In this document: one piece after another, positions 15,315-21,084 of the stretch
Numbering within the stretch: position 1 is the stretch's first letter
Layout of the letters: each line of letters starts with the position of its first letter
IMG/VR virus record: IMGVR_UViG_3300022401_000010
Source of the DNA: a virus
Length of the DNA: 37,553 bases
Strand: one strand, 5' to 3'
Translations under genes and position numbers: made by a program
The notes under the pieces: generated by a model
What the model saw: only the letters and a program-made list of their open reading frames with translations
Databases searched by the model: none
What the model was told of the DNA's origin: nothing

Positions 15315-15947
15315 ATGGCGGATACAATTGTTTTATTGGAGGAACGCAAGGAGATTACCACATTCATATTGGATGACGGCACTAAAACCCTAGTCGATAA
15401 TGTAGTCACCCCAACAGGTAGTACTCTTGGCTATGAATACTCCAATAAATGTATGGTTGATGATATACTTTGTATTTCAGACAAATCTGCAATAGGAAAG
15501 GAATGTTTAAAGAAATACAGTGGAGATGCAACGGAAGTTCCCGTTGGCGTCCTTGTCAATGAACCGGTAGTAATGACGGCCGGTGAGAGAAAAGGAAGTG
15601 TACTTCTTTTAGGCGGACTTTACCGTTTAAAACTGGCTTCAGGCATTGTTAATATTAAAGCAGGAGACAGAATCAAATTGTCACCAACTGGAGCTATTGT
15701 TGATAATGCAGGTGAGTTTCTAGCTTTTCATCCTGTTGCAAATTCGGATGAATATAACTATATCAATTGTTTCCAAGTAAGTCTTGGAGGTAAAGGAGAG
15801 AAAGGAGACACCGGAGATACAGGTGCTGCGACTGTTATCCTCGGGTCTTATGATACTTTCGAAGAACTAATTGCAGCACATCCAACAGCTAATGAAGGAG
15901 ATGCCTTCCTAGTTGATGGAGAACTATTCGTTTGGCATAACGATTAA
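15315..15947 (+). CDS. Decoration-protein paralogue fused to a short collagen segment and a C-terminal partial knuckle domain
   Basis: Residues 1-155 clearly similar to 27675; then [13 protein letters not shown]; ends GSYDTFEELIAAHPTANEGDAFLVDGELFVWHND. Confidence 0.85.
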   Translation: MADTIVLLEERKEITTFILDDGTKTLVDNVVTPTGSTLGYEYSNKCMVDDILCISDKSAIGKECLKKYSGDATEVPVGVLVNEPVVMTAGERKGSVLLLGGLYRLKLASGIVNIKAGDRIKLSPTGAIVDNAGEFLAFHPVANSDEYNYINCFQVSLGGKGEKGDTGDTGAATVILGSYDTFEELIAAHPTANEGDAFLVDGELFVWHND

Positions 15948-15977
15948 TTTAAACTAAATAAATAGAGGTGTTTATAT

Positions 15978-16850
15978 ATGGCATGGGAAAGTGTTGGTGT
16001 AATCAAAGGACCAAAAGGAGATACTGGTGAGAAAGGAGACAAAGGTGATACTGGAGACGCATTCACCTATGACAAATTCACACCAGAACAATTAGCAGGC
16101 TTAACTGGTGAAAAAGGTGACACAGGTGCTAAAGGTGATACCGGAGCCAAAGGAGACACTGGAGCAACTGGTGAAACCGGAGCAAAAGGTGATACAGGAG
16201 CAACCGGTGCAACTGGTGATAAAGGAGATACTGGTGAGCAAGGTTTAAAAGGTGACACTGGAGCAACCGGTGCAACTGGTGCTACCGGAGACCCATTCAG
16301 CATCTACAGAACATATCAAAGTGTTGAAGCAATGAACGCTGATGCAGCCAATGTTCCTGAAGGAATGTTTGTAGCAATCCAATCTGATGTTGAAGATCCT
16401 GACAATGCAAAATTATACTTAAAAGGAGCAAACAGCTTTTCATTTGTAACCGATATGTCCGGAGCAACAGGTCTTAAAGGAGACACTGGAGCCAAAGGGG
16501 ATACCGGTGCTACAGGTGCAACTGGTGCAACTGGTGATAAAGGAGAAACCGGAGACCAAGGACCACAAGGTTTAACTGGTGAGAAAGGTGATACCGGACC
16601 AACTGGTGCTACCGGTGATAAAGGAGATACAGGAAAAACAGGAGACAAAGGAGATACCGGAGATACTGGTGCTACAGGTGCTAAAGGTGACACTGGAGAT
16701 ACTGGTGCAACCGGCCCACAAGGTCCGCAAGGATACAGTACCATTATCAAAGGAAGCTATGCTACCTATGCAGAATTAATAGAAGCACATCCAACCGGTA
16801 CAACTGGTGATGCATATCTTGTTGACGGAGTGCTTTACGTCTACCAATAA
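15978..16850 (+). CDS. Collagen-like fibre protein with N-terminal W-x-x-VG-x-IKG strand and C-terminal partial knuckle
   Basis: Long Gly-X-Y runs; starts [11 protein letters not shown], ends [14 protein letters not shown]; GAGGTG RBS. Confidence 0.9.
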
Positions 16851-16872
16851 AACTAATTCCATTAAATCCCTG

Positions 16873-16911
16873 AAGGAAGTACTGAGCTAAAACGGTACTT
16901 CCTTTTTTTTT
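16873..16911 (+). terminator. Hairpin plus T-run within the fibre operon
   Basis: AAGGAAGTAC...GTACTTCCTT 10-bp stem followed by a T tract. Confidence 0.7.
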
Positions 16912-16934
16912 AAAAGATTTTCAAAGGTGATAAC

Positions 16935-18019: not shown

Positions 18020-19155
18020 AAATGTCTTATACTCAACCAGATTTATCTCAAATACTTCAAAATGAATCAACCCTTAATAATAATCTAACAACCGCTCAAA
18101 CAAGGTTAAGAAGTATATTAGACAAGGAAGAAATCGGATATACTTCAGGAGATGGTGTAATACCATTGATTAGGAAGTTACCTATCCCAGAATTGGCAAG
18201 TATAAACATATACTTTGAAAACATGTTCACAACAGGTGCGAATGTTAATGTTGAAATAACAACAAGAGACACCAACGGAGATTTAATGCCTAATGCAAAC
18301 GTGGATATGTATAGGCTTGACACTACCGCTTGGGGCCAGCCTGTAATAAATTCATTAGGAACAATAACAACTGGATCAAATGGTAAAGCTACATTAAGTG
18401 TTTCACCTCCATCAGAAAAAGGATTTTTCTATATTCAAGGAAGAAACAACAATATTGTTGGCGGCCAATATGGCGTATATTGCACTACAGCTGTTAATGT
18501 TGACGACTTAAACTACAGCAATCTGAATAGCGGATTATTCAGTGCTAACGGTAGAGGTTCAAGTTCTGGATTCAGTATAATGGAAGCTGAACCTGATGGC
18601 AATTATATGGACATATATTTGGAAGCACACAGTGGTTATTCTGGAAATTATTTCGGATTGTCATTGCCAGATTTAGGAACATATGCAACAAGCGAACTTG
18701 AAGGACATAAATTCTACGCGTTAATGTCAGATATAACTGGAACAACAGGACGATGGATGGGATTTGGAATATGTGCTAATATTGATGACTGGTCTAATTT
18801 AAGAATCGGTGCCGGTGCAAAATATAATTATGGAAATGGTAGCGGTGCCAATGGATACAGACAAGTTATGGAAAATATATCTCCATATGGAAATTCAAAC
18901 GATTCAGATGATTTAGAACCTGCTGGCATTAAATTATATCAAGTTAATTGTGATGGGTCATTCAGTCCACGTGTTTGGGATGTGTACTCAGGTGACCCTA
19001 CAGTAGAATATCCGGATTATTTTGTAAGTCACGGAACTTGGAATGTTACAATGCTTGATTTCAAAACTGGAACATATGAACCTTCAATAATATTCAATTT
19101 CCCAGATAGATATTCTTATAGGGGATTCAGAATATACGGAGCAGGAGTTATTTAA
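18016..19155 (+). CDS. Putative receptor-binding tip protein 2 (helical N-terminus, Ig-like then beta domain)
   Basis: Shared N-terminus; Ig-like VTTRDTNG..TTGSNGKATL segment. Confidence 0.55.
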   Translation: MKMSYTQPDLSQILQNESTLNNNLTTAQTRLRSILDKEEIGYTSGDGVIPLIRKLPIPELASINIYFENMFTTGANVNVEITTRDTNGDLMPNANVDMYRLDTTAWGQPVINSLGTITTGSNGKATLSVSPPSEKGFFYIQGRNNNIVGGQYGVYCTTAVNVDDLNYSNLNSGLFSANGRGSSSGFSIMEAEPDGNYMDIYLEAHSGYSGNYFGLSLPDLGTYATSELEGHKFYALMSDITGTTGRWMGFGICANIDDWSNLRIGAGAKYNYGNGSGANGYRQVMENISPYGNSNDSDDLEPAGIKLYQVNCDGSFSPRVWDVYSGDPTVEYPDYFVSHGTWNVTMLDFKTGTYEPSIIFNFPDRYSYRGFRIYGAGVI

Positions 19156-19168
19156 ACAATGTGATAAT

Positions 19169-19792
19169 ATGACTATTGCAAGCAATGTAATTGAAATCAA
19201 TACCAGATTAGGAACCGCAATATCATTAATGAGAAGTAAAATGGATGGTAACGGCTTTCCTTACTATTCCTTTGATGATCTTATTACATTAATTAATAAA
19301 TTCGAAAGAGGATGGAAAGAATATTGGTTTGATTATTGTGATACATCTGATGATCCTAGTTTAAGATATAGTTGGAGTTCTGGAACATTAACCTATGGTA
19401 CGTATGATTATTATGATGTATTATTACCATCCAGCGGCAGCATAGTTACACTGAAAGATAAACTTCCAAATCATTTCAAGTTCTCATGCACTTACTATCC
19501 AACAGACAGATGGGAATGGTTAAGATTCTATTTGAACGGAACTGAAGTCGCAAGGTATTCAGCAAGTTATGATGCCGGCAGTGGCAGTACAGCTAGACTA
19601 ACAAATTTAGGATATAACAAATGGGTAGATATTGAATTTGAATGGGATAATGGATTATTAACTATAAGAAGCGGAAGTAACTCTGGAACCTCTTCAGCTT
19701 ATAGTTTTCAGGAACCTATTCAAATGGGATTTATGGCCAATAGGGCCAATAACAGATTTAGAGATATTGACATGGAAATATTTGATGATTAA
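19169..19792 (+). CDS. Putative receptor-binding tip protein 3 (helical N-terminus, lectin-like beta domain)
   Basis: MTIASNV..INTRL..LMRSKM..NG...DDL..LI closely parallels 17267. Confidence 0.55.
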   Translation: MTIASNVIEINTRLGTAISLMRSKMDGNGFPYYSFDDLITLINKFERGWKEYWFDYCDTSDDPSLRYSWSSGTLTYGTYDYYDVLLPSSGSIVTLKDKLPNHFKFSCTYYPTDRWEWLRFYLNGTEVARYSASYDAGSGSTARLTNLGYNKWVDIEFEWDNGLLTIRSGSNSGTSSAYSFQEPIQMGFMANRANNRFRDIDMEIFDD

Positions 19793-19809
19793 AAAGATAA
19801 TGTGAGAAT

Positions 19810-21084
19810 ATGGCAGAAAAAGAATGGATTGAAATAGGACCAGTAATAGGTGACACCGGACCCAAAGGAGATACTGGAGATATAGGGATAGGAACAATAA
19901 TAAAAGGACATTACAATAGCTACTCAGAATTTATCAGCGTTCATCCTTCAGGCTCTTTAGGTGATGCATATATAGTCGATGGAAGCTATTACTATTGGGA
20001 TGGAAACGGCTGGGCTAACGCAGGTTCTGTTAAAGGAGATACTGGTGAAACCGGAGCCAAAGGTGATAAAGGTGATAAGGGAGATACTGGTGCGAAAGGC
20101 GATACAGGAAACACAGGCAAGACTGGAGCAACTGGTGAAAAAGGAGAACAAGGACCTAAAGGAGATACTGGAGATACAGGAGCTACTGGCGATACTGGAA
20201 AGACTGGGGCAAAGGGGGACACTGGAGCTACTGGTGCTGGTGTTACTATTAAAGGTTCATATAATACTTACGCGGAATTAATTGCTGAACATCCAATAGG
20301 TAATGAAGGCGACAGCTATTTAGTTAACGGATCTCTTTATGTCTGGAATGGAACTGCTTGGGAAAACGTAGGAAACATCAAAGGAGAAAAAGGAGACAAA
20401 GGCGAAACAGGCCAACAAGGTGTTAAAGGTGATACTGGCGATACAGGTTCTAGTGGCTTTTCACCAATCGTTAATGTCGACCATTCTACAGGCCAAATAG
20501 TAATCACAACAGAAGATGGTTCAACAACAATATCATTTGATGAACTCAAAGGTGATACTGGACCTCAAGGTGTTAAAGGAGATACAGGAAACACTGGCGA
20601 TGCATTCACTTTCGATGATTTCACTCCAGAACAATTGGCAAGTCTCAAAGGAGATACTGGCGATACTGGAGCAACCGGAAGTAAAGGTGACAAAGGAGAT
20701 AAAGGCGATACTGGTGCTAAAGGTGATACTGGCGAAGGTAGTGATGAGGAAGCAGGCTGGAAACTACCAGTCGATAAAATACAAACCACAACAACATTAC
20801 CAACAGGAGTAAGCAAAGGTTATCGTGTAGCTATTTGCACAAGCTCTGTCATGGCCATTAAAGAATATAACGGAAGTTCTTGGGATACAGAATCACTTGA
20901 TGCATATTCAGTGATACCATTAAAACATTCTGGAAGTATACAAATGTATTTGGCAAAAGCTAGTGGCCCAGTATATATGGGTGTTGATTATGGGGTCTTT
21001 GGTAAGTTTAGATTTATGACTCAAGCAGCATATGATGCATTAAGTAGCTATGATGAAGATACAATTTATTTTGTAAGAAGTTAA
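19810..21084 (+). CDS. Collagen-like fibre protein with two intact knuckle domains and a C-terminal tip
   Basis: Gly-X-Y runs; [26 protein letters not shown] and [26 protein letters not shown]; ends [18 protein letters not shown]. Confidence 0.9.

What the first reader, a model, noticed from the sequence alone, without database searches (positions are those of the whole stretch)
15315..21084. Plug-and-socket fibre: one domain split at the same point across two gene boundaries
Seen: in 19810 the inter-collagen knuckle is continuous twice ([46 protein letters not shown]). 15315 ends with its first part (ILGSYDTFEELIAAHPTANEGDAFLVDGELFVWHND*) and 15978 begins with the missing strand ([11 protein letters not shown]). 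15978 ends the same way ([14 protein letters not shown]) and 16935 begins MSWVNVGNIKG. 19810 also begins with a plug-like [10 protein letters not shown]. Each downstream gene has its own RBS. Known: donor-strand complementation builds chaperone-usher pili. Inference: capsid-anchored fibres assembled from separate chains by strand complementation. 15978 has both plug and socket, so it could polymerise to variable length, capped by 16935 or 19810. I know of no description of this for viral collagen fibres.
Basis: partly seen in the sequence, partly recalled or inferred. Interest (0 to 1): 0.9.

Follow-up and report, generated by a model that had tools for sequence, protein, structure and literature searches.

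The report
Split snap-joint in viral collagen fibre
A virus of gut methanogens encodes one collagen-like virion fibre as three separate proteins, each gene boundary cutting the same small trimer-forming knot at the same loop, so the pieces most likely snap together end to end; binding itself is predicted, not shown.

Summary
Genes 15315, 15978 and 16935 cut a ~45-residue inter-collagen "knuckle" at one point, the loop between its third and fourth strands. The knuckle is intact twice in 19810.

The window is a Methanobacteriales tailed virus about 99% like vir323. The split is real and maintained. It is conserved in 17 further species-level genomes as three genes and in 3 as two genes, with varying spacers and frames, a conserved ribosome-binding site, and sockets under strong purifying selection (pN/pS 0.07-0.11).

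Syntenic relatives carry one fused chain (base, collagen, tip) with no knuckle, so the three proteins together equal one fibre. The base domain resembles capsid decoration proteins, which suggests a head fibre. The knuckle model resembles collagen XV/XVIII trimerisation domains.

A 3+3 complex prediction gave only weak support (0.42, best control 0.01). A defined base-shaft-tip fibre is better supported than a self-polymerising one. The role of 19810's plug-like end remains open.

The same kind of joint occurs in bacterial phages, including cultured Bifidobacterium phage PMBT6. Earlier notes of this scan report it on other DNA. I found no published description.

The parts
14711..15310 (+). Glycosyltransferase-like gene directly upstream of the fibre genes. 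It may glycosylate the Thr-rich collagen repeats (inference only).
   Evidence: Weak GT2/Anp1 Pfam hits and phrog_1574 at E 1.4e-21. It is syntenic in L006 and vir323.
15315..15947 (+). Fibre base. Residues 1-155 form a decoration-protein-like domain, about 158-172 a short collagen run, and about 173-210 socket S1 (strand, helix, two strands) ending ...LFVW-HND*.
   Evidence: Model. Fold matches to capsid decoration proteins and DUF2190. Conserved in 17 other genomes.
15831..15944 (+). Socket S1: the knuckle without its last strand.
   Evidence: Alignment A2. pN/pS 0.074 at pS 0.41.
15948..15977 (+). Spacer 1, with a Shine-Dalgarno-like GAGGTG at 15965-15970.
   Evidence: The spacer is 15-36 nt in relatives, the frame is not conserved, and the GAGGTG is conserved.
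15978..16850 (+). Fibre shaft: plug P1 (residues 1-11), collagen runs, a globular insert (about residues 106-161), more collagen, and socket S2 (about residues 253-290) ending ...LYVY-Q*.
   Evidence: Alignments A2 and A3. The product is 290 aa in most relatives and 275 aa in one.
16851..16934 (+). Spacer 2: a conserved hairpin (16874-16903), a T-run (16903-16911) and a Shine-Dalgarno-like AGGTGAT (16925-16931).
   Evidence: The hairpin stem is invariant or kept in 11 loci. L022 and L023 lack the hairpin.
16935..17267 (+). Fibre tip: plug P2 (residues 1-11), short collagen runs around a beta insert, and a C-terminal domain ending ...NLNLLGS. That domain is the C-terminus of the fused single-chain homologues.
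17267..19792 (+). Three lectin-like genes (17267-18019, 18016-19155, 19169-19792) with similar N-terminal helices. They are likely receptor-binding cassettes and are replaced by other sets in vir323 and L006.
   Evidence: Weak Laminin_G_3 and Big_1 hits. Comparison by eye.
19810..21084 (+). Collagen fibre gene with a plug-like N-terminus, two intact knuckles (19894-20040 and 20245-20394) and a Phage_tail_C end.
   Evidence: Model of the second knuckle with pLDDT 90 or more over residues 10-50.
27675..28157 (+). Base-domain-only paralogue (160 aa, 55% identical to 15315 residues 1-155), directly upstream of two HK97-type major capsid genes. Probably the plain decoration protein.
   Evidence: vir323 annotation.

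Best explanation
This is a virion fibre, most likely a head fibre, of a tailed virus of Methanobrevibacter-type archaea, encoded as three genes: base (15315), shaft (15978) and tip (16935).

Each gene boundary lies in the hairpin loop between strands 3 and 4 of a ~45-residue knuckle that elsewhere sits uninterrupted between collagen triple helices. Its predicted fold resembles the trimerisation domain of collagens XV/XVIII.

Each upstream trimer ends with strand-helix-strand-strand (the socket). Each downstream chain begins, probably after removal of the initiator Met (residue 2 is A, S, T, G or V in every Methanobrevibacter-virus plug seen), with the missing strand, which runs straight into its own collagen helix (the plug).

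Inferred mechanism: three plugs complete three sockets and rebuild the knuckle without a covalent bond. This both joins the pieces and sets the register of the next triple helix. The result is a defined base-shaft-tip fibre, with two distinct joints (S1/P1 and S2/P2) possibly fixing the order.

Shown: the split, its conservation, selection on both halves, separate translation starts, and fused equivalents. Inferred: the physical docking, the capsid location and the ordering.
For: 1. Equivalence to one chain. Syntenic relatives encode base domain, collagen and the 16935-type middle and C-terminal parts as one 308-377 aa protein in the same gene neighbourhood (P0003 and P0004; L006; nine loci).

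2. No other attachment. The 15978 and 16935 products showed no recognisable anchoring domain besides the plug.

3. Conservation.
- The three-gene form occurs in the window plus 17 species-level genomes. A two-gene form with an anchor only about 60% identical occurs in 3 more, cut at the same loop.
- Spacers run 15-36 nt and 8-88 nt (3 nt in the two-gene form) and frames vary, while the Shine-Dalgarno-like site is conserved.
- Sockets have pN/pS 0.07-0.11 at pS 0.41-0.51. Plugs have pN/pS 0.36, with W3, G7 and G11 invariant.

4. Structure. The intact-knuckle model (pLDDT 90 or more for residues 10-50) has strands at 12-16, 34-37, 40-44 and 49-54 and a helix at 19-25, so the break is the 45-48 turn. 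The best PDB matches are a phage protein N-terminus (7chu, Z 5.8) and the collagen XV/XVIII trimerisation domains (Z 4.2-4.4, TM 0.43-0.54 over the whole 54-residue domain).

5. Complex prediction, 3x socket plus 3x plug.
- ipSAE 0.42 (runs 0.41-0.43), best of 3 controls 0.01, verdict 'weak support'.
- The mark was reached by 58 of 80 solved complexes and 2 of 110 mismatched pairs. At 0.60 or under it was reached by only 7 of those 80 and by both mismatches.
- Runs agree in at least 92% of contacts. Partner pLDDT is at least 62.

6. Modules recombine but the joints stay paired.
- L004 has an extra 69-aa plug-collagen-socket adaptor between an S1 end and a P1 start.
- L005 and L039 place S2 on other bodies, each followed by P2.

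7. The same kind of joint, often with a second socket subtype, occurs twice in a row in bacterial-phage contigs L037 and L038 and in cultured Bifidobacterium phage PMBT6, and once in L041.
Against: - There is no experimental evidence of binding. The only direct computational test was a weak pass, and the tool gave no interface.
- The 19810-type genes keep a plug-like N-terminus in relatives (L006) whose locus as read shows no socket-terminated protein. A plug-like start therefore does not by itself imply a socket partner. It could simply be the N-cap of a collagen helix.
- Constant S1|P1 and S2|P2 adjacency may reflect linkage rather than cognate recognition.
- In the monomer model, confidence falls along the plug strand (mean pLDDT 64 for residues 51-60).
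- Fold matches have middling Z scores, so the trimerisation-domain likeness and the capsid location are leads, not proofs.
Confidence: 0.65

Rival explanations
1. The proteins are independent and do not dock. The truncated knuckle is a self-sufficient C-terminal trimerisation cap, and W..VG.IKG is just the usual N-cap of a collagen helix. The conserved junction is a recombination linker where modules are exchanged, and 15978 and 16935 attach to the particle by other means or are not part of the same fibre.
For: Plug-like N-termini exist on 19810-type genes in loci where no socket was seen. Modules visibly recombine within collagen repeats (P0157 and P0158; L004 and L005). The complex score is only a weak pass.
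Against: 15978 and 16935 have no other recognisable attachment domain. Fused relatives show that base and tip belong to one chain. The cut is always at the same loop, leaving exactly one strand on the downstream protein, in two diverged archaeal-virus lineages and in bacterial phages. Sockets are under stronger constraint than expected for a mere linker.
Confidence: 0.2
2. One reading: because 15978 has both a plug and a socket, it polymerises head to tail into fibres of variable length, capped by 16935 or 19810.
For: 15978 carries both ends. A 69-aa adaptor in L004 carries P1 and S1 of the same type, so it could in principle repeat.
Against: The two ends of 15978 are of different types (P1 and S2). 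In every locus read, S1 precedes P1 and S2 precedes P2. The shaft is 290 aa in most relatives (275 aa in one), and fused homologues have defined lengths. No test of cross-pairing was possible.
Confidence: 0.1
3. One polypeptide is made by recoding (stop-codon readthrough, frameshift or ribosomal bypass) across the short gaps.
For: In this window both gaps happen to be in frame (30 and 84 nt).
Against: Each gap contains two or more in-frame stops. Gap length and frame vary among relatives. Every downstream gene keeps its own ATG and Shine-Dalgarno-like site. Gap 2 holds a terminator-like hairpin and T-run.
Confidence: 0.02
4. Recent decay: a formerly continuous fibre gene was broken by nonsense mutations, and the downstream pieces are dead.
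For: Single-chain relatives exist.
Against: The fused relatives have no knuckle at all, so they are not the unbroken version of these genes. The split persists across synonymous divergence of 0.4-0.5 with pN/pS 0.07-0.36 and in about 20 species-level genomes.
Confidence: 0.03

Closest known systems
Donor-strand complementation in chaperone-usher pili (Fim, Pap, Caf1); established knowledge
   Same: A subunit with an incomplete fold is completed by an N-terminal strand of the next subunit, which chains subunits without covalent bonds.
   Different: The fold here is a small alpha/beta trimer knot, not an Ig-like pilin. The units are trimers joined three strands at a time. No chaperone or usher family was hit among the ten neighbouring products scanned. 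The host is an archaeon and assembly would be cytoplasmic.
Trimerisation domain of multiplexin collagens XV and XVIII (PDB 3n3f, 3hsh, 3hon)
   Same: A roughly 50-residue domain of four strands and one helix adjoining a collagen triple helix. PMC7852327 states that it initiates in-register triple-helix assembly. It is among the best structural matches to the knuckle model.
   Different: No sequence-level relation was detected. The animal domain is C-terminal and in one piece, whereas here it lies between helices and is split between two proteins. Z of 4.2-4.4 is only suggestive.
F-ENA endospore appendages with the collagen-like F-BclA and F-Anchor (PMC12357932)
   Same: A collagen-like trimer is modelled (an AlphaFold 3 prediction in that paper) to dock onto another fibre component through short N-terminal peptides that mimic the filament's own inter-subunit hook. 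A glycosyltransferase gene lies nearby there, as one does here.
   Different: The receiving domain there is a beta-barrel neck of a pilin, not a half collagen knuckle. It is bacterial spore surface, not a virus.
Phage phi29 head fibre gp8.5 and DUF2190/gpD-type capsid decoration proteins
   Same: A trimeric decoration-type base on the capsid carries a fibre. The base domain of 15315 matches these folds, and its paralogue sits next to the capsid genes.
   Different: The phi29 fibre is one chain with a helical stalk. Here the stalk is collagen-like and divided among three genes.
T4 long tail fibre (gp34-gp35-gp36-gp37); established knowledge
   Same: Successive neighbouring genes encode successive segments of one fibre, joined end to end without covalent bonds. 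In T-even phages, conserved motifs in the distal fibre locus are also recombination points (from my own knowledge).
   Different: No collagen is involved, and no split of one small domain at a hairpin is known to me. Homology to gp34-37 was not tested.
Uninterrupted knuckles in single-chain collagen-like phage tail fibres (PHROGs 3904, 35286, 15437)
   Same: The same module by sequence. There were 955 library matches, and 158 of the 165 sockets in the 150 best were continuous.
   Different: There the module is a passive node within one chain. Here it is divided between chains.

Membership tests
Collagen triple helix repeat (PF01391) | Gly-X-Y repeats scoring above the Pfam gathering threshold | tested here: met
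   15978: 93.2 bits. 19810: 65.6 bits. The cut-off is 27.2.
Chaperone-usher donor-strand complementation | Ig-like pilin fold lacking its last strand | tested here: not met
   The knuckle model is strand-helix-strand-strand-strand in about 45 residues, and no Ig-like matches appeared.
Chaperone-usher donor-strand complementation | The N-terminal strand of the next subunit completes the fold | tested here: inconclusive
   Sequence complementarity is exact. The complex prediction gave ipSAE 0.42 against a best control of 0.01, rated weak support.
Chaperone-usher donor-strand complementation | Dedicated chaperone and usher genes | tested here: not met
   No such family was hit among the ten neighbouring products scanned. 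Only these ten were scanned.
Multiplexin (collagen XV/XVIII) trimerisation domain | Four-strand plus one-helix fold of about 50 residues next to a triple helix | tested here: inconclusive
   Z 4.2-4.4, rmsd 4.2-4.8 over 52-54 residues. Foldseek TM 0.43-0.54. The Z is middling and the query is a predicted monomer.
Multiplexin (collagen XV/XVIII) trimerisation domain | Sequence membership | tested here: not met
   No Pfam family at E up to 10. No PDB sequence hit with the single sequence or the profile.
Capsid decoration proteins (DUF2190 / gpD-like / phi29 gp8.5 base) | Fold of the base domain | tested here: inconclusive
   BFVD: a DUF2190 protein at E 2.5e-4, TMt 0.64. PDB: BB1 Z 7.5, HFTV1 and FCWL1 Z 6.3, SHP Z 6.1, gpD Z 5.2, gp8.5 Z 4.9-5.4. 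The hits are consistent but each is middling. No Pfam hit by sequence.
Capsid decoration proteins (DUF2190 / gpD-like / phi29 gp8.5 base) | Gene beside the major capsid gene | tested here: met
   This holds for the 55%-identical paralogue at 27675-28157, directly upstream of 28171 and 29122. It does not hold for 15315 itself.
Capsid decoration proteins (DUF2190 / gpD-like / phi29 gp8.5 base) | Binds the capsid at three-fold sites | not testable with these tools
   Needs cryo-EM of particles.
Multi-gene end-to-end fibre (T4 gp34-37 type) | Neighbouring genes encode consecutive segments of one fibre | tested here: inconclusive
   Supported indirectly by fused single-chain homologues at the same locus. 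No physical evidence.

The most novel reading that the evidence does not exclude
The split knuckle is a general, portable snap-joint for trimeric collagen fibres, used by archaeal viruses and bacterial phages and, per earlier notes of this scan, by giant viruses. It comes in mutually orthogonal socket/plug pairs that dictate the order of assembly and allow distal modules, adaptors (such as the 69-aa and 75-aa mini-proteins) and alternative tips to be exchanged by recombination. It would also be a natural split version of a collagen trimerisation and registration domain.
Probability: 0.4. Interest if true: 0.8.

Novelty: new variant of a known kind. Interest (0 to 1): 0.66.

Why it matters
If the halves do dock, this is a natural split-domain connector that joins collagen triple helices from separate genes. 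It would explain three things:
- how small viral genomes build long, modular fibres;
- how receptor-binding tips are swapped at a fixed joint;
- how one capsid base could carry different distal parts.

It also gives a concrete, testable hypothesis for almost uncharacterised structural proteins of viruses that infect gut and rumen methanogens. It points to a compact pair of peptides (about 38 and 10 residues) that might be useful for assembling trimeric proteins. The likeness to the animal collagen XV/XVIII trimerisation domain, if real, would link viral and metazoan collagen nucleation.

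Tried and rejected
- P0014 (454 aa, another lineage) seemed to end in a socket. Its gene runs off a contig end, so it is an artefact.
- Readthrough or bypass was rejected. Frames and gap lengths vary, the gaps hold several stops, and each gene has its own Shine-Dalgarno-like site.
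- Sequence searches of the knuckle found nothing beyond collagen or chance TPR matches: Pfam, PDB with the single sequence and PDB with the profile.
- The whole-protein PDB search was swamped by collagen.
- Staphylococcus phage 80alpha FibU/FibL (PMC7048315) was checked as a possible solved analogue. It is a different architecture.
- The MSTV1 paper (PMC11375127) does not mention fibres, collagen or decoration proteins.
- Literature searches for a description of split or strand-complemented collagen fibres in phages found none. This is absence in the held library only.
- The GVE2 ORF18 (7chu) search returned no paper describing that structure.
- The region-restricted homologue search returned only 40 candidates, so it could not measure how widespread terminal sockets are.
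- The Wirz et al. paper on the collagen XV domain is not held.

Full report
**What the window is**

tblastn of the 15315 product finds it at 99.5% identity in BK063679 'Caudoviricetes sp. vir323', whose recorded host is Methanobacteriales and whose source is a goat-faeces enrichment. Homologues of its N-terminal domain occur in 54 of 314 genomes of one archaeal family and in 51 of 103 genomes of one genus. The window is therefore a tailed virus or provirus of Methanobrevibacter-type methanogens.

**The observation**

- The 19810 product holds two uninterrupted copies of a ~45-residue module between collagen runs.
- The 15315 and 15978 products end with the module minus its last strand.
- The 15978 and 16935 products begin, right after the initiator Met and one small residue, with that strand (W..VG.IKG), which continues into Gly-X-Y repeats.
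- The breaks replace the short loop (NGTA in the intact copy) that in 165 library copies is 2-9 residues long.
- Shine-Dalgarno-like sites precede both downstream starts.

**Is the split real and maintained?**

I read the homologous locus in 30 species-representative genomes. They fall into three classes:
- Seventeen show the same three genes: a base ending in a socket of type S1; a shaft starting with plug P1 and ending in socket S2 (290 aa in most relatives, 275 aa in one); and a tip of 75-177 aa starting with plug P2.
- Three, whose base is only about 60% identical, show a two-gene form cut at the same loop. The gap is 3 nt, and the ribosome-binding site GGAGG is built into the last codons.
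- Nine or ten show a single chain of 308-377 aa made of base, collagen and tip, with no knuckle.

Spacer lengths (15-36 nt and 8-88 nt) and relative frames vary, which excludes readthrough, while the GAGGTG and AGGTGAT sites are kept. Across the three-gene loci the sockets have pN/pS 0.07 and 0.11 at pS 0.41 and 0.51. The plugs have pN/pS 0.36, with Trp3, Gly7 and Gly11 invariant. Both halves are therefore translated and constrained. This is neither an assembly error nor decay.

**One fibre in three pieces**

P0003, P0004 and P0012 and locus L006 place base domain, collagen, the small beta insert of 16935 and the C-terminal domain of 16935 in one polypeptide. That polypeptide sits between the same glycosyltransferase-like gene and the same lectin-like genes as in the window. 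The three window proteins are therefore collectively equivalent to one fibre protein. No anchoring element other than the plug was recognised in the shaft or the tip.

Variants show the joint behaving as a unit:
- L004 inserts a 69-aa plug-collagen-socket mini-protein between an S1 end and a P1 start.
- L005 has a 75-aa protein with a 19810-type N-terminus and an S2 end, followed by a P2 tip.
- L039 puts S2 directly on the base, again followed by P2.
- P0158 fuses the base in one chain, through an intact knuckle, to the 19810-type distal domain.

In every locus S1 precedes P1 and S2 precedes P2. This fits cognate pairs and an ordered fibre, but it could also be mere linkage.

**What the knuckle is**

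It has no Pfam family and no sequence match in the PDB. It is common in phage tail-fibre PHROGs and gave 955 library matches.
- An AlphaFold2 model of the intact copy is confident (pLDDT 90 or more) over residues 10-50. It shows strand 12-16, helix 19-25, and strands 34-37, 40-44 and 49-54. The gene break is therefore the turn of the last hairpin, and the plug is the fourth strand.
- Structural matches are led by the N-terminus of a Geobacillus phage protein (7chu, Z 5.8) and by the whole trimerisation domains of human collagens XV and XVIII (Z 4.2-4.4; TM 0.43-0.54). PMC7852327 states that these domains initiate in-register triple-helix assembly.
- The scores are middling for so small a domain, so this is a lead. 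It fits the position of the module at the start of each collagen run.

**Where the fibre sits**

The model of 15315 (pLDDT 73) matches capsid decoration or cement proteins:
- Borrelia phage BB1, Z 7.5
- Haloferax virus HFTV1 and phage FCWL1, Z 6.3
- phage 21 SHP, Z 6.1
- lambda gpD, Z 5.2
- the base of the phi29 head fibre gp8.5, Z 4.9-5.4
- a DUF2190 protein in BFVD, E 2.5e-4, TMt 0.64

A paralogue consisting of this domain alone (55% identity) lies immediately upstream of the two major capsid genes. A capsid-anchored head fibre is thus the best reading, at moderate confidence.

**Does plug bind socket?**

The best of 3 controls was 0.01, and the verdict was 'weak support'.
- The mark was reached by 58 of 80 solved complexes and 2 of 110 mismatched pairs. 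At 0.60 or under it was reached by only 7 of those 80 and by both mismatches.
- Runs agree in at least 92% of contacts, and partner pLDDT is at least 62.
- No interface was reported.

Docking therefore remains an inference, resting mainly on comparative evidence.

Self-polymerisation of the shaft is not supported. Its two ends are of different types, its length is 290 aa in most relatives (275 aa in one), and fused relatives have defined lengths.

The plug-like N-terminus of 19810 is homologous to the N-terminus of 15978 (compare). It is retained in L006, where no socket-ended protein was seen in the locus read. Either it docks elsewhere or it functions only as a helix cap.

**Beyond archaeal viruses**

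Two bacterial-phage contigs (L037, L038) each show two consecutive junctions, and a third (L041) shows one. In each, a protein ends in a socket, of a second subtype (...G.Y.D....G..Y.. plus a short acidic tail), and the next begins MAW/MEW...G.LKGPxG.

The cultured Bifidobacterium phage PMBT6 has the same arrangement twice, at QDF14889|QDF14890|QDF14891.

Earlier notes of this scan report the same joint in giant viruses and many phages, and on a relative of this window. I treated these as leads and confirmed only the bacterial-phage part myself. My literature searches found no description.

**Verdict**

In kind, this is a new variant of strand-complementation or end-to-end fibre assembly, on a fold and in a setting that I did not find described in the literature.

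Noticed in passing
window 16874-16911: A hairpin (AGGAAGTRC...GYACTTCCT) followed by 7-9 T between the shaft and tip genes is conserved in 11 loci. Its stem is almost invariant. It could be a terminator or attenuator setting lower expression of the tip and downstream genes.
   Followed up: partly
window 14711-15310: A glycosyltransferase-like gene sits directly upstream of the fibre genes, and the collagen repeats are rich in Thr (GDTG). This recalls glycosylated BclA-type collagens. The same gene is syntenic in vir323 and L006.
   Followed up: no
window 27675-30048: A decoration-type paralogue of the fibre base is followed by two tandem HK97-fold major capsid protein paralogues (28171-29109 and 29122-30048).
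   Followed up: partly
window 17267-19792; L002 9978-12142; L006 7302-9490: The lectin-like genes between tip and 19810 share an N-terminal helix motif but differ in number and type between relatives. They look like an exchangeable receptor-binding cassette. In vir323, L005 and L006 the gene before the 19810-type gene ends with a strand plus W plus 2-5 polar or acidic residues, which resembles a socket end. This may be a third kind of joint for the EWIEIG-type plug.
   Followed up: no
window 13812-14003: A 63-aa ORF, conserved in L006, contains a knuckle-like motif (YID..TG.W.YWNGT.YV..G) of the second subtype, standing alone.
   Followed up: no
L004 37-246; L005 97-324: Mini-proteins of 69 and 75 aa consist only of plug, a few collagen triplets and socket. 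They would act as adaptor or extension modules. Both lie on short metagenome contigs, so chimeric assembly is not excluded.
   Followed up: partly
L025 2146-2160: In the two-gene form, the last codons of the socket gene (W-E-E, TGGGAGGAA) contain the GGAGG ribosome-binding site of the next gene, which starts 3 nt after the stop.
   Followed up: yes
L040 (Bifidobacterium phage PMBT6, MK932884 32298-33928): Three consecutive annotated genes of a cultured phage show two socket|plug junctions, and the middle protein holds an intact knuckle. This would be a convenient experimental system.
   Followed up: partly
P0018 (152 aa): A library protein joins a 19810-type N-terminus and knuckle to the C-terminal half of the base or decoration domain. 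It is either a natural recombinant or an assembly chimera.
   Followed up: no
window 21114-27305: Downstream of the fibre module lie a small winged-helix-like regulator (21114-21395), a zinc-ribbon/TPR protein (21421-22374), and on the minus strand two large genes (22399-25083 and 25083-27305). By eye the first of these has helicase or restriction-like motifs.
   Followed up: no
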